DNA from: Candidatus Latescibacterota bacterium
GTDB taxonomy: Bacteria > Latescibacterota > UBA2968
Reading direction: 5' to 3'
Assembly (NCBI GenBank): GCA_965198115.1
Contig: OZ240241.1
Span: forward strand, 4,384,001-4,448,000
Length of the DNA: 64,000 nucleotides
The notes beneath the pieces were generated by a model. The model saw only the letters and a list, made by a program, of their open reading frames with translations. It did no database searches and was not told the DNA's origin. The first letter of the stretch is position 1, and each line of letters opens with the position of its first letter. Of this stretch, positions 43,225-64,000 are shown piece by piece. The translations under genes and the position numbers were made by a program.

Positions 43225-44262
43225 CTACCGGTTCAGCGTCAGATAAAGACCGGTCAGGAACACGTTCAACAAGGCAAGCGGCAGCAGATACTTCCACCCC
43301 AGACGCATGACTTGATCATACCGGAAGCGTGGTACCGTCCACCTTACCCAAATGAACAGGAACAGGAAGAAAGCTGTCTTCGCCGCGAAAACCAGCACCT
43401 TCAAAAGGCTCAGGGCGAAGGAAGCGTCCTTCGGGTCGACACCCGGCAAATGCCACCCGCCGAAGAACAACGTTGCGATCAAGGCCGATGCCGTAATCAT
43501 GTGGGCGTATTCGGCCATGAAGAACATCGCGAATTTCATGCTGCTGTATTCGGCGTGATAGCCGGCGACGAGCTCTTGCTCGGCCTCGGGCAGGTCGAAC
43601 GGAAGCCGGTTCGTCTCGGCAAACACAGAAACCATGAACACCAGACAGGCAATCGGTTGCGTAAACACGAACCAGGCGGGCAGAACACCCAGAATCGTTC
43701 CGTTCGCCTGCAGGTTCACCACGTCCGAAAGCTTAAGCGATCCTGCGACCATCAGAACGCCGATCAGGGAGAGACCGAGCGAAAGTTCGTAGCTGATCAT
43801 CTGCGCCGACGCCCGAACGGCGCCCATCAGGGCGTACTTGTTGTTCGAGGCCCAGCCACCCAGCACCACACCGTAGACACCGAGTGAACTCACGGCTAGG
43901 ACGTAGAGAATTCCGATATCCGCGTCCGAAATGATCAGTTGGACTTCGTGCCCGAGCACCATCAGCGTGTCGCCGAACGGCACTACGGCGAACCCCATCA
44001 ACGCCGGAACCAGAATCACCGCCGGCGCGATCAGGTAGATCGCCTTGTTCACGTGGTTGGGGATGACGTCTTCTTTGAGGATGAACTTGAGGCCGTCGGC
44101 CAGCGGTTGTAGGAGACCCCACGGTCCGACGCGATTCGGACCCAAACGATTCTGGATGTAGGCGCTTACCTTGCGTTCGGCCAGAACCACATACGCGACC
44201 GTCGTAATGATGACACCCAGGACGATCGCGATCTTGATCAGACTCTCGAGCGCGTAATCCAT
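43225..44262 (-). CDS. nuoH: NADH-quinone oxidoreductase subunit H
   Basis: [52 protein letters not shown]. Confidence 0.96.
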
Positions 44263-44264
44263 CT

Positions 44265-45869: not shown

Positions 45870-45875
45870 CGGAGG

Positions 45876-47189
45876 TCAGGCGGCGGTAACGGCCGCTCCC
45901 TTCTGAATGTGCGTCTCGAACTCGTTCCGGAAGGCCTTTATGAACCCGAGCATCGGCCAGGACCAGGACGGGCCGAACAGACAGATCGTAGACATGGCAG
46001 GCGTGAGCAGGGGCGACACGTTGTTGCAAATACTCTCGAGCGTGTCCAGGTCGTCGGGACGGCCCTGGCCGTGTGCAATCCGCCACACGATGTCACGGAC
46101 CCACGGGATACCCTCGCGACAGGGTGTGCACTGCCCGCAGGATTCGTGGGCGTAGAAATTCATCAAGTTGAGACACGCATCGACCATATCGGTCGTATCA
46201 TCCATCACAATGATCCCGCCCGTCCCGAACATACCCTGGAATTCTCCCCGGCCCGGAATCGCCCACAGCTCGGGGTTCATCTCTATGTCCAGCTCATCCG
46301 GTGTCAAAACGGGCGTAGACGATCCTCCGGGAATCACTGCCTTGATCTCGTTGTCATCCCGAATACCACCCGCACATTCGTAGATAATCTCCCTCAGCGT
46401 ACACCCGCCGATCTCCAACTCGAACATCCCGGGATTCTTGACGTGTCCACTCACGCAGTAGATGAAACTGCCCGGGTAGCGTTCACTGCCTATTTCCTTG
46501 AACCACGCAGCCCCGTTCTGGATGATGTGAGGAACGTAGCAGATCGTCTGAACGTTGTTGATCGTCGTCGGACGATCGAAGATGCCCTTCTGAGCGGGGA
46601 ACGGAGGCTTTACGCGAGGCTCGGCACGCTTGCCCTCGAGCGATTGCATCAGCCCCGTCTCCTCACCACAGATATAGGCGCCGGCGCCCGGATGCGTGTA
46701 GACCTCGATGTCGGAACCCGACCCAAGGACGTTCTCGCCAAGATAACCTGCGTCTCGTGCCTGTTGAATGACCTGGTCCATCTGCTCGAGTTCCTCCCAC
46801 ATCTCGCCGCGAATGTAGATGTAGGCGGCCCGGGCACGAATGGCATAGCACGTGATGATCACACCTTCGAGCAACTGATGGGGGTTTCTGTTCACCAGTT
46901 GGCGGTCCTTGAACGTCCCCGGTTCGCTCTCGTCGCAGTTCACGCAGAGATAGGACGGGCCATCCGGCTCCTTGGGCATAAAACTCCACTTCATACCCGT
47001 ACTGAACCAAGCACCGCCACGCCCTGCAAGAGCCGACTCCTGGATTTCAGTGATCACCTCGTCAGGCGTCATCGACTTGAAGGCTTTCTCGAGCGCCTCG
47101 TAGCCACCGTGCCGCTTGTAGACGTTTATGTCACCCAAACCGTCGACTTCTTGTAACTTGGTCAGGATCTTGCACTCTTTAATGGGCAT
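45876..47189 (-). CDS. nuoF: NADH-quinone oxidoreductase subunit F
   Basis: GRGGAWF, DESEPGTFKDR, GAGAYICGEET, ESCGQCTPCREG. Confidence 0.93.
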   Translation of the reverse strand: MPIKECKILTKLQEVDGLGDINVYKRHGGYEALEKAFKSMTPDEVITEIQESALAGRGGAWFSTGMKWSFMPKEPDGPSYLCVNCDESEPGTFKDRQLVNRNPHQLLEGVIITCYAIRARAAYIYIRGEMWEELEQMDQVIQQARDAGYLGENVLGSGSDIEVYTHPGAGAYICGEETGLMQSLEGKRAEPRVKPPFPAQKGIFDRPTTINNVQTICYVPHIIQNGAAWFKEIGSERYPGSFIYCVSGHVKNPGMFELEIGGCTLREIIYECAGGIRDDNEIKAVIPGGSSTPVLTPDELDIEMNPELWAIPGRGEFQGMFGTGGIIVMDDTTDMVDACLNLMNFYAHESCGQCTPCREGIPWVRDIVWRIAHGQGRPDDLDTLESICNNVSPLLTPAMSTICLFGPSWSWPMLGFIKAFRNEFETHIQKGAAVTAA

Positions 47190-47192
47190 TGG

Positions 47193-47672
47193 TCAGTCCA
47201 GCTCCGCCATCAGTTCGTCCAATCGATCGGGCGAAAGGTTTCGATACAGCTTGTCATCGACTCGAATCGCCGGAGCACCTTCGCACGCGGCGATGCACTC
47301 AGCCTTGGCCAGCGTCCATTTTCCATCCGCCGACGTGCCTTCGACATCGACCTGAAGCTTCTCCTTGAGATGCTCGACCAGGCTCTTCGCTCCACAGAGC
47401 GCACACGAAAGCGTGCTGCACACCTGAATGACGTGCTGCCCGACGGGGGCCTTGAAAAACATCGGATAAAAACTCATCACGCCTGCTGCACGCGCGGGAG
47501 GCATATCCAGCATCTCGGCAACGATCTTGAGCCCGTCCATCGGGACATAGCCCCACTCCCTCTGGACGGCGTGCAACACCGGAAGGATCGCAGCCTCCTT
47601 CCAATCGTCCGGATACCGGCCGATGATTTCTTCGCACTTCGCACGCGTCTCGTCTGTCAACTCAATCGCCAT
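47193..47672 (-). CDS. nuoE: NADH-quinone oxidoreductase subunit E
   Basis: VCSTLSCALCG, ECIAACEGAP 2Fe-2S ligands. Confidence 0.93.
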   Translation of the reverse strand: MAIELTDETRAKCEEIIGRYPDDWKEAAILPVLHAVQREWGYVPMDGLKIVAEMLDMPPARAAGVMSFYPMFFKAPVGQHVIQVCSTLSCALCGAKSLVEHLKEKLQVDVEGTSADGKWTLAKAECIAACEGAPAIRVDDKLYRNLSPDRLDELMAELD

Positions 47673-47721
47673 ACATTCTCATCTCGTCTCATCTGCGCGA
47701 CAAACATCGCGCGAGGACCGA

Positions 47722-47741
47722 CACTTCGACTCCGCTCAGTG
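47722..47741 (-). repeat. REP-like element (CACTGAGCGGAGTCGAAGTG)
   Basis: Shares the 16-nt core CTGAGCGGAGTCGAAG with 58201-58216. Confidence 0.7.
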
Positions 47742-47860
47742 CGATGGTACGTTGCTGGCTATCAAGAGCGGAGCCATGCAAGCGCCTATGCGTCCCGGGT
47801 GTACCGCCGGGCCCGTTCCTTGAATAGGCCACCTGGGCTCCGGCTCCCCAGTGGCTGCTT

Positions 47861-49647
47861 TTATCTGTCGAGCTCACCCGCGATTACATTGATGCTCCCG
47901 AGGACGGCGATCGCGTCTGAAATCATGTGGCCGTCTATCATCTCCGGATAGGCCTGGTAGTTCATAAAGGAAGGCGCCCGGACGCGCATCCGATAGGCAT
48001 AGCCCGTGCCATCGCTCACCACGTAGAACCCGAGTTCCCCGTTCGGAGCTTCGGTCGGGACATACGCTTCACCCGGTTCGGGCGTCAGTCCGTGCCCGTC
48101 CATCAGAACCTTGAAGTGGTGAATCAGTGACTCCATGCCGAAATCGACCTGGCCTTTTTCCGGCAGAATGACTTTGGCGTCTTCGACCTTGACGGGTCCC
48201 TTGGGCATTTTATCGAGCGCTTGCTCGATGATGCTCTGAGACTGCCTCAGCTCTTCCATTCGGACCAGGTAGCGGTCGTACGTATCCCCGTTTTCCCCGA
48301 TGGGAATGTCGAAGTCGAGATCGGGAAACACCAGAAAAGGCTCCTGCTTCCGAATATCGTAGTCCACACCCGAACCGCGCAACATCGGCCCGGTCATATT
48401 CCAGTTGATCGCATCCTCGCCGGAGATGACACCGATGTCCTTCGTTCGGTCGATCCAAATGCGGTTCCGCGTCAACAGACGCTCCACTTCTTCCATCGCG
48501 GCGGGAAACTGCGCGACGAAATCGAGTACGACTTCGCGGAAGTTGTCCGGCACATCCCATCCCAAACCACCAATACGGGTGTAACTCGTCGTCAGTCGAG
48601 CACCCGTCACCAGTTCGAAGATGTTGTAACAGCGCTCACGTTGCTCGAATGTATAGAGGAACACCGTAAAAGCACCGATGTCGAGCGCGTGTGTACCCAG
48701 CCAGACCATGTGGTCGGCGATGCGCGACAGCTCCCAAAGAATCGTCCGGATGTACAGGGCCCGCTCAGGAACGTCGAGCTCCATCAGCCGCTCGACGGCA
48801 GCGGAGTACGCGATGTTGTTGCACAGGGGCGAGAGATAATTCATCCGGTCGGTGACCGTCACGTACTGATTGTATGTATGATGCTCGCCCAGCTTCTCGA
48901 AACCCGTATGGAGGTAGCCGATGTCGGGTATGCACCGGACGATTCGCTCGCCGTCCAACTCCAGCGTCAGCCTCAGTGTCCCGTGCGTCGCCGGATGCTG
49001 CGGGCCCAGGTTGAGAACCATACGCTCCGACAAGAGCGCGTCGTCGACCTCTTCTTCTTCCTCTCCAGCGTAGGGATTGCCGAGAAAGCCGGGATCCTCG
49101 GGCGCTATGACGTCTCGCTCCCCAACCCCTTGGACAGGATAGTCCTTCCGCAGGGGAAAGTGCTCGAAGTTGACGGGCATCAGAATCCGACGAAGGTCAG
49201 GGTGTCCCTCGAATCGAATCCCGAACATATCGAAGACTTCGCGCTCGGGCCACTCAGCCCCTCTGTGGATGGAAGCGACCGAGGGGATGGTGCAGCCATC
49301 CTCCGAAACCTGAGCGCGTAACCGGAGACGTCGATTGTGTGGATGGGAATAAAGGTGGTAAACGACATTGAAGCGTGGACCATCGGGCGGGTGCCCGGGG
49401 TAGGTGCTATAGTCCACCGCGCTCACGTCGCTGAGCCGATCGAATGACAGCTCGGGATCGTCCTTTAGGAAGGACAGAATGTCTCGAATTCGAGATTTGG
49501 TGCAGACGACCGTCGTTTCGCCGTAGGATTCGGAGACTTCGATGATCTCATCGCTGAAGCGATCCTGAAGCGCCCGAGCCGCGGGATCATCGACCTCCGG
49601 CACGACCGCTTCTGTTTCGACCGTCTCCGTCGCGTTTTCCTCGGCCA

Positions 49648-49648
<1 letters not shown>
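47861..49648 (-). CDS. nuoCD: Fused NADH-quinone oxidoreductase subunit C/D
   Basis: NuoC motifs EREVFDMFGI.FEGHPDLRRIL and PLRKDYP; NuoD motifs NLGPQHPATHG, GYLHTGFEK and terminal GELDR. Confidence 0.95.
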
Positions 49649-50132
<484 letters not shown>

Positions 50133-50142
<10 letters not shown>

Positions 50143-50498
50143 TCGAGCCCTCCCTTTCGCCACACATAGGCAAATCCCAGAATCAGGACCCCTAGGAAAA
50201 CCACCATCTCCGTAAAAACGAAAGACCCCTGAGCCAGCAGATCCTTGAAGACGACGGCCCAGGGGTAGAGAAATACCACTTCGATGTCGAAGATGATAAA
50301 AAGCATCGCAACGAGGTAGAACTTGACGCTGAATCGCAAACGGGCGTCGCCGATGTTGGGAACGCCCGACTCGTAGGGAGAGAGCTTGACGGGATTGGGC
50401 TTGCGAGGACCGACCAGGTGGGTGATACCGAGGTTGACGGCGGCGAACCCTGCCGCGACGAACAGCAGCAGAACAATCGGGAGGTAATCGCTCAGCAT
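50133..50498 (-). CDS. nuoA: NADH-quinone oxidoreductase subunit A
   Basis: [39 protein letters not shown]. Confidence 0.95.
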
Positions 50499-50613
50499 AA
50501 CTCTCGTGGTTGACCCCAGGGGCAAAGCAGAGAGGCGAGCACCTAACTTATTGAACAGCATAAGGATACAAGCAGCGAGGTCGCTCACGGTAGTGCCGCC
50601 AAAAACCGCGATA

Positions 50614-50642
50614 ATTATATCACGCAGCCTACTTGATGTCAA
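50614..50642 (-). promoter_or_regulatory. Consensus sigma70 promoter of the nuo operon
   Basis: Perfect TTGACA-N17-TATAAT on the minus strand. Confidence 0.85.
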
Positions 50643-50794
50643 GCCAAATTGAAACGAACATTTAACTCTGACGAGCGCCAAAAAGACGCACGATTCGTGC
50701 CTCTCAGCATCGAAATCGGAGCGCATCCAACCTTTACGGTCAGGGCCAGCAGCCCTATTCTCTACAGGATGAACGAACCTCTGGAAGCACCATC

Positions 50795-51817
50795 GTGAGC
50801 GCGCCGACGGTATCGGTGCTCCTGCCGGTCTACAACGGAGAGCCAACGCTCCCGGAAGCCCTCGAGACTCTCCATTCCCAATCATTCGAGCCTTTCGAAG
50901 TGATTGCTGTCGACGATGGATCGACCGATGGAACAGCGCGGATCCTTCAGACGGCAGCTCGGAGAGACGCGCGAATTCGGGTCGTCACACGCCCTCACGC
51001 TGGTCTGATCGACACGCTGAACGCCGGAATCGCCGAATGCAGGGCGCCGTTGATCGCCCGTTTTGACGCCGACGACCGGGCCCTACCCCATCGACTCGAG
51101 CGACAGGTCGCTTTCCTTAGCGACCATCCAGAAATCGCCGCGGTGGGATCTCAGGTGCGGTGCTTTTCAGAAAGCGGGGTGGCGGAAGGATTCAGGGTCT
51201 ACGAGAGATGGATCAACACCCTCATCACGCACGAGGACATCGCGCGTGAAATCTACATCGAGAGCCCACTCGTTCATCCATCCGTCACTCTGAGACGTGC
51301 GGTCCTGGATGAAGTTGAAGGGTACCAAGAACGCGGCTGGGCCGAGGACTACGATCTCTGGCTGCGAATCCACTCAGCGGGTTATGCTATGGGCAAGATC
51401 CCAGAAGTTCTGCACGAGTGGCGCGAGGGCGAGACTCGCCTCACGAGAACCGACGCGCGATACTCGGTCGAAAACTTCCTCAGAGCAAAGGCTCACTATC
51501 TTGGACTCGGCCCCCTCTCCAACCACAAAGCCTGCATCGTGTGGGGCGCCGGCCAAATGGGAAGACGGCTTTCCAAACATCTGCAGAGAGAGAACATACG
51601 GATCCACGCTTTCGTCGACATCGACCCCAAGAAGATCGGCAACACGCGCAGAGGGGCACCGATCATCGCACCTGGTGACCTGAACACGGCTCGTCGAGAG
51701 GCCGGCAACCCGATGGTTCTCGCTGCTGTACCTTCACGAGGCGCCCGCGACCTCATTCGCGGAAACCTGAACGATCTGGGTTTGGTCGAAACCGTAGACT
51801 ACGTTTGCGTCGCCTAA
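50795..51817 (+). CDS. Glycosyltransferase family 2 with C-terminal Rossmann-like domain
   Basis: VSVLLPVYN, VDDGSTD, ARFDADD, EDYDLWLR; C-terminal VWGAGQMG. Confidence 0.9.
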   Translation: MSAPTVSVLLPVYNGEPTLPEALETLHSQSFEPFEVIAVDDGSTDGTARILQTAARRDARIRVVTRPHAGLIDTLNAGIAECRAPLIARFDADDRALPHRLERQVAFLSDHPEIAAVGSQVRCFSESGVAEGFRVYERWINTLITHEDIAREIYIESPLVHPSVTLRRAVLDEVEGYQERGWAEDYDLWLRIHSAGYAMGKIPEVLHEWREGETRLTRTDARYSVENFLRAKAHYLGLGPLSNHKACIVWGAGQMGRRLSKHLQRENIRIHAFVDIDPKKIGNTRRGAPIIAPGDLNTARREAGNPMVLAAVPSRGARDLIRGNLNDLGLVETVDYVCVA

Positions 51818-51838: not shown

Positions 51839-52423
51839 ATGCTCGAATGGCTCAAATCGATCTTTACCGGAGACAGCCCCCCCGTCGACGAGCCTCTGCC
51901 ACAGCTCGAGATGTTGCGCGATCACCTCAACGACCTGCCAGCCATCGTCATCCCCAATGGCTACGAATTGCGCACCTATCGAGACGGGGACGAACAGGCT
52001 TGGTGCGACATCATGGAAAACAACGTCGGTCAGAACTGGACGCGGGAGCGGTGCCGTATGCGCCTGATCGACGATCCGCGTTTCGACGGAGAAAATCTGT
52101 TCTTCGCGGTCCACGATGGGAAACCCGTTGCCAGCGCGTGCGCGTGGAAGGCCACGGTCGAAGAATCCGTCATGGGCGAGGTCCATATGGTCGCCGCCCT
52201 CGAATCCTACCGTGGCAAAGGTCTCGGACATCTCGTCAACACAGCCGTTCTCCACAGACTCCAAGAGCTCGGTTTCCAAAAGAGCCATCTGAAGACCGAC
52301 GACTACCGGCTGGCTGCCATTAACTCCTACCTCAAGGCCGGATTCGAACCCCTCAACACGCATATCAGCCACGCTGAGCGATGGGAAGCGATTATGGAAC
52401 GCCTGGAAGAAGGGCGAGCTTAA
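51839..52423 (+). CDS. GNAT family N-acetyltransferase
   Basis: VHMVAALESYRGKGLG acetyl-CoA motif; AINSYLKAGF. Confidence 0.85.
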   Translation: MLEWLKSIFTGDSPPVDEPLPQLEMLRDHLNDLPAIVIPNGYELRTYRDGDEQAWCDIMENNVGQNWTRERCRMRLIDDPRFDGENLFFAVHDGKPVASACAWKATVEESVMGEVHMVAALESYRGKGLGHLVNTAVLHRLQELGFQKSHLKTDDYRLAAINSYLKAGFEPLNTHISHAERWEAIMERLEEGRA

Positions 52424-52516: not shown

Positions 52517-53185
52517 TCAATAGTTCATCCCCATCGCAGCCTTGACACGCTCCAACGTCTGCTGACCCCGTATTCGTGCCTGCGACCCACCGAGGTTCAA
52601 CACGTCATTCACGAACGTAGGAACATACGTCTTCACTGCCTCTACAACAGTGTCACCGTCTTCACAGAAGTAAGGGGTCGGAATCGGAAAGACCTCCTCG
52701 TAGGCATCGTTGAACCGGCACGCAACGGCCTGCGCGAGCTCGATGTTCTCCCTTTGACTTTCAAAGACCAGCACGTAACGCGCTCCGAACATGAGAATGT
52801 CGGCGACTTGTGAAACCGGATAGCCCACGACGCTGAGGGACGTTCGTTTGGGCATTTCTCCCTGTTTCCGAATGTGCTTGCTCAGAAGATCCGTCAGCGT
52901 CACGAGGTTTCCCAAGATCATTGTCAGCTCCGACAGTTGTGGTACGGCCGACTGTAGAAAGCAGACCGATTGCTCGGGATCGAACCCGGCTACGAGGAAT
53001 CGTTCGACCGTCGCCTGGATCGCCCGATTCATCTTGATCCCGTGCTGACCCTTCCTCGTCAACGCCTGGTAATCTGCGATCATAAAGTGGCACTGGAACG
53101 TTTCCTGATAACCGAACAGCGGAGCGAGCCTCTCTGTTTTGCCTTCGAGCGCGGGTAGCACACCCGTAATCGCTACATCTCTCAT
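52517..53185 (-). CDS. Truncated tryptophanyl-tRNA synthetase paralog lacking HIGH, KMSKS and anticodon-binding domain
   Basis: IADYQALT, AGFDPEQS..FLQSAVPQLSELT, GYPVSQVADIL, RFNDAY..VFPIP and terminal TLERVKAAMGMNY are TrpRS-like; the ORF is uninterrupted (222 aa). Confidence 0.75.
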   Translation of the reverse strand: MRDVAITGVLPALEGKTERLAPLFGYQETFQCHFMIADYQALTRKGQHGIKMNRAIQATVERFLVAGFDPEQSVCFLQSAVPQLSELTMILGNLVTLTDLLSKHIRKQGEMPKRTSLSVVGYPVSQVADILMFGARYVLVFESQRENIELAQAVACRFNDAYEEVFPIPTPYFCEDGDTVVEAVKTYVPTFVNDVLNLGGSQARIRGQQTLERVKAAMGMNY

Positions 53186-53421
53186 CTCGAGCCATCCCTT
53201 CGTCTTTCTTGGAGTCTTGGTGTTTTGGTGGTTTGCTTGTCTAAACGAAAAAAGGCCGCGCACCCCCCGAAGGGACACGCGGCCTTGAGCCAGCATCGAT
53301 CGCGTCCGTCATCCGGTGGTGGGCGTACCTCTCCATCCAGCCACCACCACCAGCCACGAACGCTCGTGTCAGACACCATCGACAGTCTGCTGACACCGTT
53401 CTGCATTCCGTGCACGATCAT
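53182..53421 (-). CDS. Putative Trp leader ORF (RGWWWWL)
   Basis: Four tandem TGG codons at 53341-53352; ATGA overlaps with both the sigma stop and the TrpRS-like start; alternative ATG at 53379. Confidence 0.6.
   Translation of the reverse strand: MIVHGMQNGVSRLSMVSDTSVRGWWWWLDGEVRPPPDDGRDRCWLKAACPFGGCAAFFRLDKQTTKTPRLQERRRDGSR
53248..53286 (-). terminator. Intrinsic terminator/attenuator upstream of the TrpRS-like gene
   Basis: AAGGCCGCGTGTCCC-TTCG-GGGGGTGCGCGGCCTTTTTT on the minus strand. Confidence 0.85.
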
Positions 53422-55427
53422 TTTTCGACTCTCAGTCCCACCTTCACTTCTTCGACGAACTGACCCACTCTCCAAACCGCCTCCCCGATCTCGGTGAACG
53501 AATAGACCCCGTTTTCTCTGTTCATCAGGCTGTGCCGACCTTCCATCACCATCTGTCGTCGTGTCGTGGAATAGTCCCCGCACACCGACGCGACGATCCG
53601 GGTCAGCTCCTCTTCCTCGTAGTCTCGGATCTCTGGCAGCGTCCGAAGCCCCAGAATGGGATCGATATGCATCTCCTTGCCTCTGCTGGCTCCCTCATCC
53701 AGATACGCGGCTCCACGGATCCGTTCGATACGACGCAGTTCAAGCTCGGTCCGTTGCCGCGGTCCTTCGCCGACGTAAAGCGCGCGGGCGGCGACCTTCA
53801 TCAGTCTTCGATCACCTGATTTGGCGATCCGCGAGAGACAGGCACGCTTCTCGTCATCCGTAGCGACCTTTTTGTAGGCTCTCACTGCCGTCTCACGAAC
53901 GGATGGGTCTTCGTCTTCCTCCAGCCGCTCGAGTATGACGTCCTTGGCATCCACGTTGGCCCGCTTTCCCATCTCGTTCAGCACGCGCACACGTTCCGAG
54001 GGATCTTGATCGGTCACCTTCTCGATCAGTTCCTCCACGGTCTCCCGCACTTTGACACCCGGCACGTTGTACATCCGGCACGCGTCGAGAGCTCGGAGCC
54101 GGATGACCTCGTCATCTGATTCTGCAAGCGCCTTCAGCGAAGGGTGAATCCGGGCCGGCAGGAAGTGAACTTTCTCTCTGAAGAAGGATGTGTTGCGATG
54201 GAACGGCACCAGCATCAGTTCGTCCAGCATCCGGAAAGTGCGCTTGGAATCGCCCTCCTTGAAGACGCCGATCGCTGCGTCGCACAGCGGCTCGACGAGA
54301 TGAGCCAACGCCTTTCTCACGCCATACTCGACTTCATCATTCTCATCCAGCTCCCAGAACGCATCCCACAGCACCGGAAAGGCTTCCTCCGGATATCCGA
54401 GCAGGACCCGTGACAGCTCGAACATCTCTTTGTGAGTCTGTCCGGGTTGGCCGGAGTCTTTGATCGTCTGAATCAGCCGGACCAGCAGGCGAACCTTTTT
54501 CGCTTCCGTTGCGGGCGAGGCAATCACACCATCCAGCAGCAGGTTCACACCCCTCACGCCGTACCAGGATCTCAGAATCCAGCGTTCGGCCACCCGTGCC
54601 GCACGTTCCGCCAGTTCTTCGTCTTCCGACAGGCAGCAAGTGGCGAGAACCGGCATCGCCGGGACCAGCGAAAACCTCACGACGTGCGCGATGTGCACGA
54701 GACGCTCGTCGGTATCCGCCACTTTGAGCAGGTCGACCAGGCGAGCCGAATCGGCCTCGATCACCTGTCTCAACCGAACCATCGGCTCGCTATGGCCTTT
54801 GACCCTATCCACACCGTTCGCCGCCTCGACCTCCTCTTTCAGCGCGTCGAGCAGCTCGAGCTCGAGCCTGAAGCGAATCGCAAGATCTGTCTCTTCCATT
54901 GTGTAATCCTCTAAGCCTGAGATGGCTTTCCGCAAAGCGTTCTTGGCGCGGTGAATCCGACTCATCACCGTGCCGATCGGCATACCCAAATCATCGGCGA
55001 TCTCCTGGTAGGAGAGTCCAATCCGATAGCACAGATCCAGGATCTGTTGATGGTCCGAATTCAGCAGAGCGATGCCGTGAGCCACGCGATCGTATTCCTG
55101 GGCATCATCCTCGCGCTGTATCGTCTCGACCAGGATCTCCGGATCGGGAATCGCCTTCTGCACACGATACCAGGACCGACAGAGGTTCCGTGTGATCGTG
55201 CGAAGCCACGCCGCGAAGAACTCGGGGTTACGCAACTGATCGAGTTTGAGATAGGCTTCGACGAATGACTCGAGGACGAGATCTTCCGCATCATCCTCAT
55301 CCCGCGTGAACTTCCGACAGATGGCGCGAACGTCGGCCTCGAAGGCCTGCATCAAGGTCCCAAACGCATCCCGATCGCCGTCCCTCGCCTTTAGAACTAG
55401 GTGCGTGTAAGAGGTCTGGGTCTTCAT
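53418..55427 (-). CDS. ECF sigma-70 factor with ~500-aa C-terminal extension (HEAT-like repeats, DUF2087-like tail)
   Basis: DAEDLVLESFVEAY, FAAWLRTITRNLC, LSYQEIADDLGMPIGTVMSRIHRAK; repeats DEVIRLRAL, DPSERVRVL, DPSVRETAV; tail YEEEELTRIV..DYSTTRRQMV. Confidence 0.8.
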   Translation of the reverse strand: MKTQTSYTHLVLKARDGDRDAFGTLMQAFEADVRAICRKFTRDEDDAEDLVLESFVEAYLKLDQLRNPEFFAAWLRTITRNLCRSWYRVQKAIPDPEILVETIQREDDAQEYDRVAHGIALLNSDHQQILDLCYRIGLSYQEIADDLGMPIGTVMSRIHRAKNALRKAISGLEDYTMEETDLAIRFRLELELLDALKEEVEAANGVDRVKGHSEPMVRLRQVIEADSARLVDLLKVADTDERLVHIAHVVRFSLVPAMPVLATCCLSEDEELAERAARVAERWILRSWYGVRGVNLLLDGVIASPATEAKKVRLLVRLIQTIKDSGQPGQTHKEMFELSRVLLGYPEEAFPVLWDAFWELDENDEVEYGVRKALAHLVEPLCDAAIGVFKEGDSKRTFRMLDELMLVPFHRNTSFFREKVHFLPARIHPSLKALAESDDEVIRLRALDACRMYNVPGVKVRETVEELIEKVTDQDPSERVRVLNEMGKRANVDAKDVILERLEEDEDPSVRETAVRAYKKVATDDEKRACLSRIAKSGDRRLMKVAARALYVGEGPRQRTELELRRIERIRGAAYLDEGASRGKEMHIDPILGLRTLPEIRDYEEEELTRIVASVCGDYSTTRRQMVMEGRHSLMNRENGVYSFTEIGEAVWRVGQFVEEVKVGLRVEK

Positions 55428-55428
55428 C

Positions 55429-56359
55429 TCACTCGAAGGTGGCGAGCAGTGACTTGATCCTGTCCAGAAATGCCGGACCCTTCTTCTCGTTGGCGTAACT
55501 GTAGAACAACCGCTCGAAGATCAGGATCGCCAGCGTGTAGAACCTGTAGAGCGGCGCATCCCGGTCCAGACGCAGGCCATATCCCGACAGAAGCCGTTCG
55601 ACGTCGAACGGTAGCCGAGGGTTGTCGATGTGGCGTTCGATGATCGCGATCTCGAGGAGCGGGTCCCCGGCCATCGCCTCGGCATAGTCCAGGATACCGA
55701 CAATACGCCTGCCCTCTTTCGACAGGATCAGGTTGCCATTGTAGAAGTAGTCCATATGGAGAAGCCGCTTTTCGACCTGCTCCAGTTGTGGATGAAGACG
55801 CGATGGCAGCGAGCAAAGGATGTCGGCTTCATCGCGTGTGAGCAGCCCCTGGTCGTAGTAGTCCTTCGATGCCACCTCGCAGGGGAACATCTCCCCCCAG
55901 TGATCCGAAGCGGGTCCGAACCAACGCTCGGGAGGATCGTCCCCGAGGAAGCAGAAGGGCCCATCAAACGTGAGGTCGTGGATTCGGCGCAGTTGTTCGC
56001 CACACTCACCTTCATCCAACAGAAACGAATCATCCTGCCAATGGGCCTGCACACCGTCGATGTACTCCCAGATGCTCGCCCCACGGCCGTCTCGGTCTTC
56101 GCCCCGGTCCAGACCTATGAGTTCGGGCACGGGCAGTCCGGCTTCTTGTAGCCTCTGATGGAAGTAGACCCCGACCGGCTCAGCTTGAACGTTTCGCTGG
56201 ACCTTGAGGAACATCATCTCCTGTCCCTTCCGGACGCGGTAGCAGTAGTTCGCACGCCCCGAGGGGTGGGCGCACACGTTCGACCGCATCCGGCGCATAG
56301 CCCAGAAGGTTCTCCGCCCTAGCGAGGGCATCGGAATCGATATCTGTGGCCTTGTTCAT
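55429..56359 (-). CDS. Aminoglycoside phosphotransferase/choline kinase-like protein (possible frameshift near 56280)
   Basis: FLKV, AGLPVPEL, LLHMDYFYNGNLIL, ILDYAEAMAGDP. A plausible N-terminus MNKATDIDSDALARAENLLG from ATG 56359 is out of frame with the ORF at 55429-56331. Confidence 0.72.
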
Positions 56360-56407
56360 TGGTTACACCCTATCGACGCGATCTCTATCCATTTATTCCA
56401 GCAAGAA

Positions 56408-56442
56408 CGAAAAAACCCGCATCCGATTGTCCGGAGCGGGTT
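56408..56442 (-). terminator. Attenuator terminator
   Basis: AACCCGCTCCGGA-CAA-TCGGATGCGGGTTTTTT on the minus strand. Confidence 0.85.
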
Positions 56443-56469
56443 CAAGGCGATTCTCAGTGGAACTCGAAT

Positions 56470-56568
56470 TCAGCGCAATCGACACGACCCTCCGGACACG
56501 AGTAGACCTGTCCAGCCCCACCATAGGCCGGTTGTACTGAGGGTCGAAAGAGGAGATCGGGTCGCCAT
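56470..56568 (-). CDS. Trp attenuator leader peptide MATRSPLSTLSTTGLWWGWTGLLVSGGSCRLR
   Basis: TGG TGG GGC TGG at 56512-56523; lies between a promoter and a terminator; mutually exclusive stems are present. Confidence 0.75.
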   Translation of the reverse strand: MATRSPLSTLSTTGLWWGWTGLLVSGGSCRLR

Positions 56569-56578
56569 CACAGCAAAA

Positions 56579-56607
56579 AGGATAGACGGAACCTCATTTC
56601 GTGTCAA
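56579..56607 (-). promoter_or_regulatory. Sigma70 promoter of the Trp-leader unit
   Basis: TTGACA-N17-TATCCT on the minus strand; the predicted TSS falls at the leader start. Confidence 0.75.
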
Positions 56608-58828: not shown

Positions 58829-58840
58829 AGGAGGTTGCCT

Positions 58841-59810
58841 TTGTACCCAGCCTACCAGATAGATGACTGTTCGGACGACAACCTCAAATTTGTCGTCCAA
58901 ACCGGGGTTAACCACATCGTGCACGCCACGCACAAGCCCTTTATGATCGAAGGGAAGGGTTACTGGTCGAAGGATGCGCTGGTCGAGTTCAAAGAGCATT
59001 TAGAGTCATACGGAATCAGCATTGAAGTGATGGCGCCTCCGTTGCACGCCAACTTCATCGAAGACGCCGATAACCCGAGCATTATGCTCGGAAAGGACGG
59101 ACGCGATAAGGAGATCGACGACGTCATCGAGTGCGTCAAAGCCGGGGGTGAAGTTGGGATTGGATCCCTTGCCTGAAGTACAATATGACCCTCCTCGGTG
59201 TCGGCTCGACTTACTATTTCAACTTCGAGGAGAAGAGAGAGACGGACAAAGAACTGACCTCGGCAGGGATGGTCGATGCCGATGCGATGTGGGAGCGCAT
59301 CAGCTACTTCCTCGAGCGTGTCATTCCTGTGGCCGAGGAATACAAGGTCAAGATGGCGTGCCATCCCCACGACCCGGGGATGCCATCCTCGGGATACCGC
59401 GGGATCGATCGCGTTTTGGGCACCGTCGAGGGCGCCAAGAAATTCGCCGACCTCGTCGACAGCCCGTATCACGGCTTCAACTTTTGTCAGGGCACTTTTG
59501 CAGAAATGCTCGAGAACCCGGGGAAAGAGATTTTCGACGTTATCCGATACTTTGGGGAGCGGAAGAAGATCTTATGGTCCACTTCCGGAACATCCGAGGC
59601 AAACGGCTCGAATTCGAGGAAACCTACATCGACGAAGGGGATGTCGACATGTGGGAGGCAATGAAGGTTTACAAGGGGGTCGACTACGACGGTGTTTTCT
59701 GTCCCGATCACGTTGCGGAGTCGGATCGGGACTCAGCCTGGGGCCATCGTCAGCGCGCATACACCGCCGGCTACATCAAAGCGCTGATCAAAGCGGCGCA
59801 GAACCCTTGA
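58841..59810 (+). pseudogene. Mannonate dehydratase (UxuA)-like gene with multiple lesions
   Basis: [48 protein letters not shown] and PDH are spread over three ORF segments; frameshifts near 59162 and 59572. Confidence 0.8.
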
Positions 59811-59995
59811 AATCGAGAATGTGGTGATCGAGAATCGAGAACGACCAATGTTTGGCGTAACAGAGTTCGGATCTCTCTTGTCTATCCATCCAGATAGCGG
59901 AGGATGGTCGTTCCAGAGGATAGAAGGCAGAGGACAGCACAACGAGCTACGCCCGATTCCCAAGTCTCGATCTTCGATTCTCGATGCTCGATGCT
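59810..59995. repeat. Facing arrays of 7-mer TCGA-core repeats
   Basis: aatcgagaat..gatcgagaatcgagaa ... tctcgat cttcgat tctcgat gctcgat. Confidence 0.7.
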
Positions 59996-61089
59996 AGACC
60001 GTCTTCCCAAAGCTGTCGCCGTACTCGACGAGGAGCGCGCGCGGGGTCATCACCTGGGCGCACAGCTGTATATCCGCTACGGCGACGACGTGGTCGTAGA
60101 CGATGGCTGGGGTGAAACCAGACCCGGAATCCCGCTGACGTCAGACGCCATCATTCTCTGGCTATCAGCCACGAAGCCCATTGTCGCGACAGCACTTGCA
60201 CAACTATGGGAGCGAGGGATCGTCGACATCGACGATCCCGTGGTCGATGTCATTCCCGATTTCGGGCAGAGCGGAAAAGCTCAGATCACGTTTCGTCACA
60301 TCCTCACGCACACGGGCGGCTTTAGAAACGCTGACGTGCAATGGGATGAAGACACGTGGGAGACCATCATCCCAAAAATCTGTGCCGCTCCTCTGGAGTC
60401 GGACTGGCACCCCGGTCAGAAAGCGGGCTACCACGTGGCGACCGGCTGGTACATCCTGGGTGAAGCCATTCAGACTGTCCGGCCAATCCCTCCCGGATTT
60501 CCTGAGGACCTCGATTTTCGATCCCCTCTCGATGGATGACTCGTGGCTCGGAATCCCGTCCGCAAGCTTTCACTCCTACGGTGACAGAATCGCGCTCTCC
60601 TACGACGCAACAAAACAGCCGCTCGAGTCTCACACTTTTTTCAACAGTGCGGAGGGTGCAGCGATCGTCAGGCCGGGAGGGAATGGTCGAGGGCCCGTTC
60701 GCGAACTCGCCCGATTCTATCGTGCGCTGCTCGGGGGAGGTGAGCTCGACGGGCACCGCATTCTTTCACAGGACACCGTGGCCACGTTGACCTCACGGCA
60801 TCGTGTCGCCCTGCACGATCACACCTTCCGTCACAAGATGGACTGGGGTCTCGGATTCATCATCAACTCCGCCCACTATGGTGAAGCCACCGTGCCCTAT
60901 GGCTACGGGCCCCACGCTTCGCCCGAGACCTTCGGCCATAGCGGGTGGCAATCAGCCTGTGCCTTCGCCGATCCCGAGCACCATCTCGCCGTCGCGTGGG
61001 TGTGCAACGGCACTCCGGGCGAACCCCGCCATCACAAGCGCCAGCGGGCCCTGAATGCTGCCATTTACGAGGATCTCGGGCTCTCCTAG
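59991..61089 (+). pseudogene. Serine hydrolase, beta-lactamase class C family, with a frameshift near 60474
   Basis: WLSATKP (SxxK), LTHTGGF and PGQKAGYH in one frame; LSGQSL..FL...IFDPLSMDD and FGHSG in another. Confidence 0.78.
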
Positions 61090-61263: not shown

Positions 61264-62016
61264 CTATGTCGTCAAAGCCGCCCGCAAATAATCCCGCTTC
61301 ATACTCGCGATCGTCGAAATGGAGATCTGCTTGGGGCAAACGGCTTCGCACTCGGCGTGGTTGGAGCAGTTGCCGAATCCTTCTTCGTCCATCTGACCAA
61401 CCATCCGCAGCGCGCGCTCCTTCCTCTCCGGTTGACCCTGTGGAAGACGCGCAAACTGAGCGATTTTGGCTGCCGTAAACAACGATGCCGACGCATTCGG
61501 ACACGCAGCCACGCAGGCACCACAACCGATGCACGCGGCAGCGTCCATCGCCAGATCGGCATCGACCTTGGAGACAGGTAGCGCATTCGCTTCGGGTGCG
61601 TTACCTGTGCTGACGGAAATGTAGCCGCCCGCCTGTACGATGCGGTCGAACGATGTGCGATCGACCACCAGGTCTCTCACCACGGGAAAAGCTTTGGATC
61701 GCCAGGGCTCGATCGTGATCGTGTCACCGTCCCGATAATGACGCATATGCAGTTGGCAGGTCGCGGTTCCGTGTAGAGGTCCGTGGGGCACGCCGTTGAT
61801 GACAAGACTGCACATCCCACAGATTCCCTCGCGGCAGTCGCTGTCGAACTCGATCGGCTCCTCTCCCCGCTTGATCAGGTCCTGATTCACCACGTCGAGC
61901 ATTTCGAGAAAGGACATATCCGGATTCACATCGTCGGCCTTGTAGGGCACGAGCTTACCCGGCCGATCGGGCCCTTCCTGCCGCCAGATATGGAGATTCA
62001 GTGTCATCCCTGCCAT
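61264..62016 (-). CDS. sdhB: Succinate dehydrogenase/fumarate reductase iron-sulfur subunit
   Basis: [36 protein letters not shown]. Confidence 0.94.
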
Positions 62017-62176
62017 CGCGATCCTGCTTTCAAGTTTCTCTCCGCTGACGTCATGCTAAAACCCGAATTCAACAGATACCAGTCTACGCCACGCACCACT
62101 CGGTGATTCCACTCAACTAAGAACCGACGCCTCAGCTCCTCCCCAAATCGGGCCTCGATCCCGTCGAGTCCTCCCC

Positions 62177-62236
62177 CTCCGTGTCCAGAGCCTGTCCCGA
62201 GCGCAGTCGAGGGGTTGTTCTCAGTGGTTCGTCTTG
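62177..62236. repeat. Composite repeat related to 42294-42367
   Basis: CTCCGTGTCC..GCCTGTCCCGAGCGCAGTCGAGGGG..CTCAGTGGTTCGTCTTG. Confidence 0.65.
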
Positions 62237-62242
62237 TTTTGA

Positions 62243-64000
62243 TCATTTATAGCTTCGCTGTGTGAGTTTCACGTGCTGAAACTCGAGCGGCTCCTGGTGA
62301 AGCGTGGGAGTCTCGCCCACCCCGTTGAACTCCCACGCCGAGACGAACGAAAATTCATCATCCTTGCGCAAGGCCTCGCCCTCCTCCGTCTGGCTTTCCG
62401 CTCGGAAATGTCCTCCGCACGATTCAGATCGATCGCGGGCGTCGATGGCCATCAACTCGCCCAATTCCAAAAAGTCCGCCACGCGACCGGCCATCTCGAG
62501 GTTTTTGTTGAAGTGGCCGTTGCTTCCAGGGACCTTGACGTTCTGCCAGAAGTCGTCGCGCAGCTTCGGAATCTCTTCCACCGCCCTGGCCAGCCCATCC
62601 TCCGTGCGTTCCATCCCGACGTATTCCCACATCAGCAGGCCGAGCTCACGGTGGTACTCGCCGACCGTCTTGTTGCCGCCCACGTCCAAGAGCACGTCGA
62701 GACGCGATTGAACGTCACCGTGGGCCTGTTCGAACGCATCGGCCTGGGTATCGAGTTCCGAAAAGGTCTCACCAGCCAGGTAATCACCGATGGTATAGGG
62801 AATCACAAAATACCCGTCGCACAGCCCCTGCATCAGGGCGCTCGCCCCGAGTCGGTTGGCGCCGTGATCCGAAAAGTTCGCCTCCCCCAGAACGAACAAT
62901 CCGGGGATCGAGCTCATCAGATCGTAATCGACCCACAGTCCGCCCATCGTGTAATGAACGGCGGGATAGATTCGCATTGGAACGCTGTATGGATTCTCGC
63001 CCGTAATGCGCTCGTACATCTCGAACAGATTCCCGTAGCGCTCACGAATGACCTGCTCGCCCAACCGCTCGATCGAATCCGCAAAGTCGAGATAGACGGA
63101 AAGCCCCGTCGGCCCGACGCCCCGTCCTTCGTCACACACGGCTTTCGCGTTTCTCGACGCGACATCGCGTGGCACGAGGTTGCCGAAGCTCGGATAGCGG
63201 CGCTCCAAATAGTAGTCCCGTTCGTCCTCTGGGATCTGATCGGGCGGCCGCTTGTCCCCTTCCTCCTTTGGGACCCAAACGCGTCCATCGTTGCGCAGAC
63301 TTTCGCTCATTAACGTGAGCTTGGATTGGTGATCGCCCGACACGGGGATACACGTCGGGTGAATCTGCGTATAACAGGGATTCCCGAAGTAGGCCCCACG
63401 CTTGTGACATCGCCAGGCCGCGGTCACGTTGCTGTTTATCGCGTTCGTCGACAGGTAGAAAACAGCCCCATACCCACCCGTCGCCAGAATGACTGCGTCG
63501 CCTGCATATCGCTCGATCTCACCCGTCACCAGATTCCGGCCCACGATGCCTCGCGCCTGACCGTCAGCCACGACGAGATCCAGCATTTCAAACCTCGGAT
63601 GCAGGTCCACGCGCCCCGCATCTACCTGCCGCATCAATGCGCTGTAGGCGCCCAGCAGGAGCTGTTGTCCCGTCTGGCCACGTGCGTAGAACGTCCGCGA
63701 AACCTGCGCCCCACCAAAAGACCGATTCGCAAGTAGACCTCCGTAATCGCGTGCGAACGGAACACCCTGCGCCACACACTGGTCGATGATGTTGCTGCTC
63801 AGCTGGGCAAGACGGTAAACGTTCGCTTCACGTGACCGGTAGTCCCCTCCCTTGACGGTGTCGTAAAAGAGACGCCACACACTATCGCCGTCGTTCGGGT
63901 AGTTCTTCGCCGCGTTGATTCCGCCCTGCGCTGCGATGCTGTGCGCACGCCTGGGGCTGTCCTGGATACAAAAGTTCTGGACGTTGTAACCCATCTCTGC
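62243..64000 (-). CDS. sdhA: Succinate dehydrogenase/fumarate reductase flavoprotein subunit, 5'-truncated by window edge
   Basis: [57 protein letters not shown]. Confidence 0.95.

What the first reader, a model, noticed from the sequence alone, without database searches (positions are those of the whole stretch)
52517..56607. Candidate tryptophan-responsive module: two Trp attenuators controlling a kinase, a giant ECF sigma factor and an apparently inactive TrpRS paralog
Seen, on the minus strand in order: promoter (TTGACA-N17-TATCCT), leader with WWGW, terminator, APH-like kinase, 669-aa ECF sigma (1-nt gap from the kinase), leader with WWWW, terminator, 222-aa TrpRS-like ORF. Established: Trp-codon leaders with terminators normally control trp biosynthesis, transport or trpS. 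None of these genes is a biosynthetic enzyme or an intact synthetase. Inference: a signalling circuit gated by Trp-tRNA availability, in which the TrpRS shell binds Trp or an analog and the sigma and kinase act as outputs. I do not know of a described system with this layout. A more mundane reading is that the kinase and sigma were inserted into a former trp/trpS locus.
Basis: partly seen in the sequence, partly recalled or inferred. Interest (0 to 1): 0.88.

Follow-up and report, generated by a model that had tools for sequence, protein, structure and literature searches.

The report
Tryptophan-gated dead synthetase, repeatedly trimmed
Two tryptophan-codon leaders with terminators, predicted to act as attenuators, belong to an old spare tryptophanyl-tRNA synthetase locus whose gene has lost its tRNA-binding domain again and again in these bacteria yet stays conserved, likely as a non-catalytic partner protein, while the kinase and sigma factor between the leaders look like passengers rather than parts of a conserved signalling circuit.

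Summary
The layout is real, with three corrections: the kinase is frameshifted, the kinase-sigma pair has its own ECF-type promoter motif behind the first terminator, and the second leader has no stop codon before its terminator. The proposed circuit is not supported. Both leaders belong to an auxiliary TrpRS-II locus found in 38 of 132 genomes of this Ca. Latescibacterota class. The slot between the leaders holds nothing, a tautomerase, a DUF2087 gene, the housekeeping trpS, or sigma with or without kinase. Only 2 of 22 genomes with the shortened TrpRS have the sigma beside it. What is unusual: the auxiliary TrpRS has lost its anticodon/Fe-S domain by in-frame deletion at 8 or more different junctions, then its ATP motifs, yet stays under purifying selection (dN/dS 0.12-0.40), keeping the dimer-interface strand and C-terminal helix best. 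I found no such TrpRS paralog in print. Best guess (untested): a starvation-induced dead subunit that pairs with the housekeeping TrpRS. Also new: leader B reads Pro-Pro-Pro-Asp exactly where homologous classical trpE leaders have their stop, suggesting a polyproline pause replaces the stop codon.

The parts
56579..56607 (-). sigma-70-type promoter, TTGACA-N17-TATCCT (predicted)
   Evidence: 10 of 12; chance-level alone; same position in relatives
56470..56568 (-). leader A, 32 codons, WWGW at 56523-56512, own stop codon: classical attenuator leader
   Evidence: Trp codons kept in G001 (WW) and G010 (WW)
56488..56499 (-). antiterminator segment of leader A, complementary to the 5' arm of terminator A
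   Evidence: constrained folds; complementarity kept in G001 and G010
56405..56443 (-). intrinsic terminator A
   Evidence: folds (z -2.4); near-identical stem in G001, G010
56373..56400 (-). ECF-type promoter motif TGGAATAA-N15-GTC(G/T)A, downstream of terminator A; likely autoregulatory promoter of the kinase-sigma cassette
   Evidence: same motif 8-10 nt before the sigma start in G010, G049, G050, two of them with no Trp leader
55429..56359 (-). APH/choline-kinase-like gene, frameshifted near 56250 (true start 56359; long frame 56331-55429; internal ATG 56217)
   Evidence: PF01636 E 9e-18; N-terminus matches intact P0097 up to the break
53418..55427 (-). ECF sigma factor, 669 aa, sigma2+sigma4, C-terminal extension with HEAT repeats and DUF2087
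   Evidence: 29 relatives of the extension; dN/dS 0.10 vs G001
53182..53421 (-). leader B ORF, 79 codons: ATG overlaps the sigma stop, WWWW 53352-53341, PPPD 53322-53311, no stop before the terminator, TGA overlaps the ATG of the TrpRS-like gene
   Evidence: covariance model
53246..53286 (-). intrinsic terminator B, 16-bp stem and U tract
52517..53185 (-). 222-aa TrpRS-II-derived shell: Rossmann core and C-terminal helix, no HIGH, no KMSKS, no anticodon/Fe-S domain (about 96 residues gone)
   Evidence: dN/dS 0.18 (0.10-0.26)
51839..52423 (+). convergent GNAT gene; marks the orthologous locus in relatives, not part of the operon

Best explanation
This is an auxiliary tryptophanyl-tRNA synthetase (TrpRS II-type) locus with two Trp-codon leaders and terminators, predicted to work as tandem attenuators, in which the synthetase has lost its tRNA-binding domain and ATP motifs but is kept by selection, likely as a dead partner subunit, while a kinase-sigma cassette with its own predicted promoter rides in the gap between the leaders. 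Shown by sequence: tandem leaders travel with trpS2; the gap has variable cargo; the anticodon/Fe-S domain was cut out in frame many times; the remainder is under purifying selection (about 0.85 that this history is right). Inferred from established attenuation: when charged tRNA-Trp is short, ribosomes stall on the Trp codons, both terminators are read through, and cargo and shell are made (0.75). Inferred, untested: in leader B a polyproline pause does the work of the missing stop codon, holding the ribosome on the antiterminator segment so that the terminator can form (0.4). Inferred, untested: the shell pairs with the housekeeping TrpRS; since TrpRS binds tRNA across the dimer, such a pair could not charge tRNA-Trp, so the shell would park or damp the enzyme during starvation (0.4). 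The sigma would be primed by read-through of terminator A and then sustain itself from its own promoter, but this wiring is local to two genera and is decaying.
For: trpS2 in 38 of 132 class genomes, 16 full-length and 22 internally deleted. Best solved relative of the full form is Deinococcus TrpRS II, E 2e-88. Leader-B model: 40 strong hits (E<1e-17), one per genome, 38 at trpS2 and 2 where the gene has been deleted; 24 of the 40 were in the training set. Gap content: no gene in 12 of 15 loci, DUF2087 in G003, tautomerase in G006, sigma pair in G010; trpS1 in 9 genomes of family f2. At least 8 different in-frame junctions, all keeping the C-terminal helix; all 16 full forms have C-x20-C-x6-C-x2-C, none of 22 shells does. 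dN/dS of six shell pairs 0.12-0.40, upper 95% limits 0.26-0.63; 0 stops where about 60 are expected under neutrality in five pairs. CFLQS.VPQL is kept in all shells aligned (one has a Gln-to-Lys change, G001 a stop) even where Tyr125, Asp132 or GxDQ are lost. Cross-subunit tRNA binding and a monomer-dimer exchange of apo TrpRS: passages of PMC2954223, PMC10201369; heterodimers of duplicated synthetases exist: passages of PMC4787780. Leader B: no stop between Trp codons and PPP in any of 36 loci, none before the U tract in 32 of 35; Trp-to-Pro spacing changes only by whole codons while the spacing after PPP changes freely; four homologous leaders in family f3 read the same bases in another frame and stop there; polyproline before an intrinsic terminator raises termination in E. 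coli (passages of PMC5021804).
Against: No binding, expression or activity data. The interface segment of the shell differs from that of TrpRS1 (CFLQSAVPQL versus IYLQSAVHAV), so it may only self-pair. Damping TrpRS during starvation is not obviously useful. Shells evolve faster than trpS1 (0.35-0.40 versus 0.05-0.09 in genus g7) and are dispensable: 9 of 15 g7 genomes lack the gene, G001 has three stops, G007 only a remnant. In genus g4 the deleted allele is interleaved with full alleles on trees, so its low dN/dS (0.105) may be inherited by recombination. The CCACCACC bases also pair with the Trp codons and the terminator, which alone could explain PPP; 3 loci have PQP, LPP or PTP; in wild-type E. 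coli the polyproline effect was under 2-fold, and this genome has efp. Homology of leader A to the f2 trpS1 leader was judged by position and look, not tested with a model.
Confidence: 0.45

Rival explanations
1. Same history, but the shell is a slow stage of gene loss. Selection removed the Fe-S-bearing anticodon domain, and what is left is constrained only to stay folded and harmless until the whole gene is deleted; it has no useful function.
For: Loss series in genus g7: 6 genomes with shell, 3 with leader B but no gene, 6 with neither. Pseudogenes in G001 and G007, frameshift in P0007. Raised dN/dS. Best-kept residues are largely core-fold residues.
Against: Shells persisted open over saturating synonymous distance (G050-G051 dS above 3; G000 branch), with 0 stops against about 60 expected; leader B is kept in front of them; patterned conservation, 0.82-0.90 identity in pocket helix, AD-Q strand and C-helix against 0.24-0.45 in junction and HIGH region.
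Confidence: 0.22
2. The shell is a starvation- or inhibitor-induced binder of tryptophan or an indole analogue (buffer, decoy or sensor), independent of the sigma factor.
For: Tyr125, Gln129 and Asp132 equivalents kept in the window protein and its closest relatives; pocket helix is the best-conserved block in that lineage (0.90). Ancestor is TrpRS II-type, a type reported to handle modified Trp (review passage).
Against: Gln147-equivalent is His or Arg in 4 of the 4 closest relatives tabulated; Tyr125 or Asp132 are lost in several other shells. High-affinity indolmycin binding needs Mg-ATP (passages of bioRxiv 10.64898/2026.03.23.713518) and the ATP motifs are gone.
Confidence: 0.2
3. One reading: Trp-tRNA shortage opens both attenuators, the shell senses Trp and controls the ECF sigma through its HEAT/DUF2087 extension, and the kinase is an output or second input.
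For: Sigma family is physically linked to the locus in three genera of the family (inside the gap in G000, G001, G010; directly upstream in G009); a free DUF2087 gene sits in the gap in G003. Five further contigs carry both sigma and shell, judged by equal contig lengths. All three genes had low dN/dS between G000 and G001 (0.10, 0.12, 0.18). Leader B start overlaps the sigma stop.
Against: 20 of 22 shells have no adjacent sigma and 17 of 22 no such sigma found at all; sigma is beside a full-length trpS2 in G009 and G010 and leaderless in G049, G050; kinase in 3 of 53 genomes and broken in all 3; all three genes intact in 0 of 7 genus-level genomes or contigs; cassette has its own promoter motif behind terminator A.
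Confidence: 0.1

Closest known systems
Auxiliary TrpRS genes under ribosome-mediated attenuation (trpS2 of Streptomyces avermitilis, passage of PMC1262725; indolmycin-resistant TrpRS1 of S. coelicolor, review PMC9437257; its attenuator, Vecchione and Sello 2010, recalled, not read)
   Same: Second trpS beside a housekeeping copy, behind a Trp-codon leader with terminator.
   Different: Here two leaders in tandem with a cargo gap; one leader has no stop codon; the enzyme is dead by sequence in 22 of 38 genomes.
Deinococcus radiodurans TrpRS II (PDB 2a4m, 1yi8) and the [4Fe-4S] TrpRS of Thermotoga maritima (2g36, PMC2954223)
   Same: Best solved matches of the full-length ancestor (E 2e-88, 8e-81); shared TGDRPTG and AD.QALT; four-Cys motif in the anticodon domain.
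   Different: Those are active synthetases; first Cys spacing is 20 here against 21-24 reported; the window protein has lost the whole domain.
Synthetase paralogs lacking the anticodon domain (Glu-Q-RS/YadB, PoxA/EpmA, CysRS*, MshC, cyclodipeptide synthases; review PMC9437257)
   Same: Catalytic-domain-only derivative of an aaRS kept by selection.
   Different: Those keep a catalytic activity; this shell has lost HIGH and KMSKS. The review's table lists no paralog function for TrpRS. It arose repeatedly and recently by in-frame deletion, not once.
ThrRS T1-T2 heterodimer of Anabaena (PMC4787780) and HisZ
   Same: A non-charging synthetase subunit with a role through oligomerisation under stress; model for the proposed mechanism.
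ECF sigma factors with C-terminal extensions (ECF41, 42, 56 etc.) and kinase-associated groups (ECF43, 59-62, 217, 283; PMC7826278)
   Same: sigma2-sigma4 core, long fused extension, no anti-sigma gene, autoregulatory-type promoter, kinase neighbour.
   Different: Extension is HEAT + DUF2087 (neither term found in the main text of that paper; its supplements not seen); neighbour is an APH-family, not a Ser/Thr protein kinase.

Membership tests
Tryptophanyl-tRNA synthetase (class Ic) | Rossmann catalytic fold | tested here: met
   PF00579; model pLDDT 75.9, top natural Foldseek hits are TrpRS, TM 0.8
Tryptophanyl-tRNA synthetase (class Ic) | HIGH and KMSKS ATP motifs | tested here: not met
   both absent; TIGR00233 86 bits against cut-off 176.75
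Tryptophanyl-tRNA synthetase (class Ic) | anticodon-binding domain | tested here: not met
   about 96 residues (185-286 of the full form) missing
Tryptophanyl-tRNA synthetase (class Ic) | Trp pocket (Tyr125, Asp132, GxDQ with Gln147) | tested here: inconclusive
   Tyr, Asp, Gln kept in the window protein but GxDQ reads FESQ; Gln is His/Arg in closest relatives. Tyr125 numbering recalled
TrpRS II-type auxiliary synthetase (ancestry) | second copy, TGDRPTG / AD.Q signature, closest to Deinococcus TrpRS II | tested here: met
   intact housekeeping trpS elsewhere, without leader
TrpRS II-type auxiliary synthetase (ancestry) | resistance to indolmycin | not testable with these tools
   Gln at the His43 position; that this confers resistance is recalled, the primary papers were not held
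Classical ribosome-mediated attenuator (leader A) | short ORF with Trp codons, own stop, alternative antiterminator and terminator hairpins, U tract | tested here: met
Classical ribosome-mediated attenuator (leader B) | Trp codons and mutually exclusive hairpins | tested here: met
   masking the Trp codons replaces the terminator in full-length folds of G000, G001, G010, G052 but not of 7 other loci folded; covariation in the terminator stem
Classical ribosome-mediated attenuator (leader B) | leader stop codon upstream of the terminator | tested here: not met
   no stop before the U tract in 32 of 35 loci
Classical ribosome-mediated attenuator (both) | read-through responds to Trp-tRNA | not testable with these tools
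   no RNA holder listed; needs a reporter
ECF sigma factor with C-terminal extension | sigma2 + sigma4, no sigma3, extension over 50 aa, no anti-sigma gene | tested here: met
ECF sigma factor with C-terminal extension | assignment to a numbered ECF group | not tested
   no group HMMs available; supplements of PMC7826278 not read
Kinase-activated ECF (ECF43 type) | co-encoded Ser/Thr protein kinase | tested here: not met
   only PF01636 APH matches; gene frameshifted
APH(3') aminoglycoside phosphotransferase | NCBIfam NF033068 cut-off | tested here: not met
   20.1 bits against 205

The most novel reading that the evidence does not exclude
Latescibacterota have repeatedly evolved, by clean excision of the Fe-S anticodon domain, an anti-synthetase: a dead TrpRS subunit made only when tRNA-Trp is uncharged, which captures housekeeping TrpRS monomers and so holds all Trp attenuators open; it is gated by a new kind of attenuator in which a polyproline pause replaces the stop codon, and in this genus the same signal also fires a self-amplifying ECF sigma factor.
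Probability: 0.2. Interest if true: 0.88.

Novelty: new variant of a known kind. Interest (0 to 1): 0.62.

Why it matters
If the shell has a function it would be, as far as my searches reach, the first non-catalytic TrpRS paralog in bacteria, and a case where the birth of a synthetase-like protein can be watched many times over in close relatives, with full-length, freshly deleted, eroded and lost states all present. A dead subunit acting through the obligate dimer would be a new way to regulate a class Ic synthetase. The stop-less leader, with a classical homologue that differs by a frame shift, makes a direct test of whether polyproline pausing can time attenuation. The cargo gap shows how a sigma factor can be wired to amino-acid starvation simply by landing between two attenuators.

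Tried and rejected
Rfam: no family at gathering score; two chance hairpin hits. First genome-wide leader scan missed both target leaders because of an ORF-length filter; redone with them as controls. Assembly error as cause of the kinase frameshift: not supported by same-sample contigs. TAG recoding in G001: considered; its stops fall at Gln and other codons and come with frameshifts in kinase and sigma, so pseudogene was preferred. Trp auxotrophy as explanation: trpA found in 52 of 53 genomes of the order, trpE in G000 with its own aromatic leader. Metagenome scan with the sigma alignment returned only generic ECF cores, useless for synteny. A regulon for the ECF motif: 4 matches in G000 against 3.9 expected; across the class 5 of 29 matches precede a sigma-like gene. 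ESM Atlas for the sigma extension: best score 0.78, no lead. No RNA holder listed. Complex prediction of shell with sigma extension: tool not available, no result. Structure prediction of the sigma was submitted and had not finished. Amino-acid tree timed out; in the DNA tree the deep shells group together with support 57-96, which may be long-branch attraction, so junctions rather than the tree were used to count events. Recurrent deletion at a repeat in genus g4: no repeat longer than a few bases at that junction. Earlier findings of the scan: none bearing on this locus. Not-in-print claim rests on searches of an open-access library only.

Full report
OBSERVATION. On the minus strand: a TTGACA-N17-TATCCT promoter (56607-56579), a 32-codon leader A with WWGW and its own stop, terminator A, an APH-family gene, a 1-nt gap, a 669-aa ECF sigma with HEAT repeats and DUF2087, WWWW, a 16-bp terminator B, and a 222-aa TrpRS-like ORF. 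The promoter alone is at chance level. The leaders are not: 19 of 1376 WW sites in the genome have a terminator-like hairpin behind them and both leaders are among the four with three or more Trp codons. Three corrections. The kinase is frameshifted near 56250: the frame from ATG 56359 matches the intact 310-aa homologue P0097 up to that point and stops after 59 codons; contigs of the same sample show no difference (not independent). An ECF-type promoter motif lies between terminator A and the kinase. The WWWW frame has no stop before terminator B; it starts on the sigma stop and ends on the start of the TrpRS-like gene.

ORGANISM AND BACKGROUND. Titles of the closest related records name Ca. 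Latescibacterota. The genome has an intact housekeeping trpS without a leader, trpA and trpE, and a separate aromatic leader with terminator before trpE, so attenuation-like control is in use and the organism likely makes Trp.

THE LEADERS BELONG TO trpS2. A second TrpRS sits beside the same convergent GNAT gene in most relatives checked; it was found in 38 of 132 genomes of the class, 16 full-length and 22 internally deleted. The full form has HLGH/HVGH and KMGKS-type motifs and is closest to Deinococcus TrpRS II among solved structures. A covariance model of leader B (24 training loci) gave 40 strong hits in 132 genomes, one per genome: 38 before trpS2 and 2 where the gene has been deleted. 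In 12 of 15 loci read, leader A and its terminator are followed by leader B with no gene between. The gap holds a DUF2087 gene in G003, a tautomerase in G006, a sigma and a sigma-less paralog in G010, kinase plus sigma in G000 and G001, and in 9 genomes of the sister family the housekeeping trpS lies between a Trp leader and leader B (homology of that leader to leader A was not tested with a model). So the tandem-leader operon is old and the cargo varies.

KINASE AND SIGMA. The kinase family occurs in 3 of 53 genomes of the order, each time directly before the sigma, and is broken in all three (two different frameshifts, one insertion-sequence truncation). The sigma extension has 29 relatives in the large collection and matches in 9 of 61 genomes, two of them weak. 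In G049 and G050 it stands elsewhere without a Trp leader but with the same TGGAATAA-N15-GTCTA motif 9-10 nt before its start; G010 has it too. ECFs usually autoregulate (passage of PMC7826278), so the cassette likely has a promoter that bypasses terminator A. Of 22 genomes with a shortened TrpRS, 2 have the sigma adjacent and 5 have it at all. Five more contigs of this genus-level lineage carry these genes, judged by equal contig lengths, adjacency unseen: over 7 genomes or contigs the shell is open in 5, the sigma in 5, a full kinase was seen in 1 of the 4 where it was found, and all three together in none; indel errors in those assemblies cannot be excluded. In favour of some link: the sigma family touches this locus in three genera, and all three genes show low dN/dS between G000 and G001. 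I rate the integrated circuit at 0.1.

THE SHELL. The 222-aa protein folds as a TrpRS core (pLDDT 75.9). It lacks HIGH, KMSKS and about 96 residues of the anticodon domain, yet keeps the C-terminal helix. The same loss happened repeatedly: at least 8 different junctions among genomes and collection proteins, three of them inside one genus, all in frame. One protein (P0044) ends near the usual break without the helix; its cause was not seen. All 16 full forms carry C-x20-C-x6-C-x2-C in the lost domain and none of the 22 shells does; a similar motif binds [4Fe-4S] in Thermotoga TrpRS (passages of PMC2954223). After deletion the ATP motifs erode. Selection remains: dN/dS 0.18 for G000-G001, 0.12-0.40 for five other pairs, with no stop where about 60 are expected. 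Among five shells of this lineage identity is 0.90 in the pocket helix, 0.86 in the AD-Q strand, 0.82 in the C-helix, 0.75 in the dimer segment, but 0.45 in the HIGH region and 0.24 at the junction. Across all shells the most constant string is CFLQS.VPQL, while Tyr125, Asp132 and GxDQ are lost in several. Against a strong function: dN/dS is 4-7 times that of trpS1 in genus g7, 9 of 15 g7 genomes lack the gene, G001 and G007 hold pseudogenes, and in genus g4 one deletion allele is interleaved with full alleles, which points to recombination and weakens its dN/dS of 0.105 as evidence.

MECHANISM. Established knowledge says Trp-codon leaders open when charged tRNA-Trp is short; constrained folds give the expected switch for both leaders of the window, though in 7 of 11 leader-B loci the terminator survives masking in the full-length fold and yields only in shortened nascent RNA. 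TrpRS binds tRNA across its dimer and apo E. coli TrpRS is partly monomeric (passages); duplicated synthetases can form mixed dimers (passages of PMC4787780). A shell that keeps the dimer segment but has no anticodon domain would, if it pairs with TrpRS1, give a dimer unable to charge tRNA. I therefore commit to a starvation-induced dead subunit that parks or damps TrpRS1. This step is inferred only; ligand binding and slow decay are close rivals.

LEADER B. In 36 of 38 loci where the pattern was matched, the Trp run is followed in frame, 10 or 11 codons later (13 in one), by PPP (PQP, LPP in two; PTP in a further locus read); no stop lies between, and 32 of 35 have none before the U tract; after PPP the spacing changes by non-triplets. 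Weak model hits in a third family are classical leaders before anthranilate synthase (4 read, 2 scanned): they contain the same GGTGCGTCCA(C/T)C bases in another frame and stop right there. So PPPD occupies the place of the stop. Polyproline before an intrinsic terminator favours termination in E. coli, strongly without EF-P and under 2-fold with it (passages of PMC5021804); this genome has efp. The same bases also pair with the Trp codons and the terminator, so RNA pairing alone may explain them. Probability 0.4.

COMPARISON AND NOVELTY. Attenuated auxiliary trpS genes are known (passage of PMC1262725; Vecchione and Sello 2010 recalled only). Synthetase paralogs without a tRNA-binding domain are known, but the review table seen lists none for TrpRS (passages of PMC9437257; PMC5388404 passages add none). 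Ten searches of an open-access library found no such shell, no stop-less Trp attenuator and no HEAT/DUF2087 ECF; subscription papers and supplements were not seen. Verdict: new variant of known kinds; circuit unsupported; shell and leader B worth testing. Interest 0.62.

Noticed in passing
window 58835-59810 and 59904-61089 (+): A dehydratase-like gene and a beta-lactamase-family gene are each split over several frames; both are single ORFs (332 and 365 aa) in G001, and same-sample contigs agree with the window up to 60600, so this genome likely carries real pseudogenes here.
   Followed up: partly
G000 C1 about 5579490-5579340 (-): The trpE operon has a 30-codon leader with FYWF and a terminator, and the operon includes a class Ic synthetase-like gene between trp genes: a leader that may sense all three aromatic amino acids.
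   Followed up: partly
L018, L008, L003 and other genus g4 loci: One identical 84-codon deletion allele of trpS2 occurs in 9 species interleaved with 8 full-length ones on gene and flank trees, with no linked fixed differences: a shared polymorphism spread by recombination or kept by balancing selection.
   Followed up: partly
L247, L248, L249 (G036, G031, G045): Orphan leader B (partial in G045) after trpS1 with the downstream gene deleted; it may now act as a plain terminator.
   Followed up: partly
L066:9485-10987: A 500-aa paralog of the sigma's C-terminal extension (HEAT + DUF2087) without sigma domains follows the sigma in G010; could be an anti-sigma-like partner or a duplication remnant.
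   Followed up: no
L090:3813-5557, L003:2675-3193: Tandem arrays of short genes with coiled-coil-like repeats (REIAESRAETK, DRVETSLKS) lie just upstream of leader A in several g4 genomes.
   Followed up: no
G000 C1 2870558-2872531: An array of about 20 tRNA genes in 2 kb, including one with anticodon TAT.
   Followed up: no
G000 C1 3839954, 4113945, 4717648, 7906047, 8307508: Five other sigma-like genes with long open frames after the core (about 390-780 aa): C-terminally extended ECFs are common in this genome.
   Followed up: no
window 43225-50885 (-) and 61264-63994 (-): NADH dehydrogenase (nuo) and succinate dehydrogenase genes flank the region, recognised by eye from their translations.
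   Followed up: no
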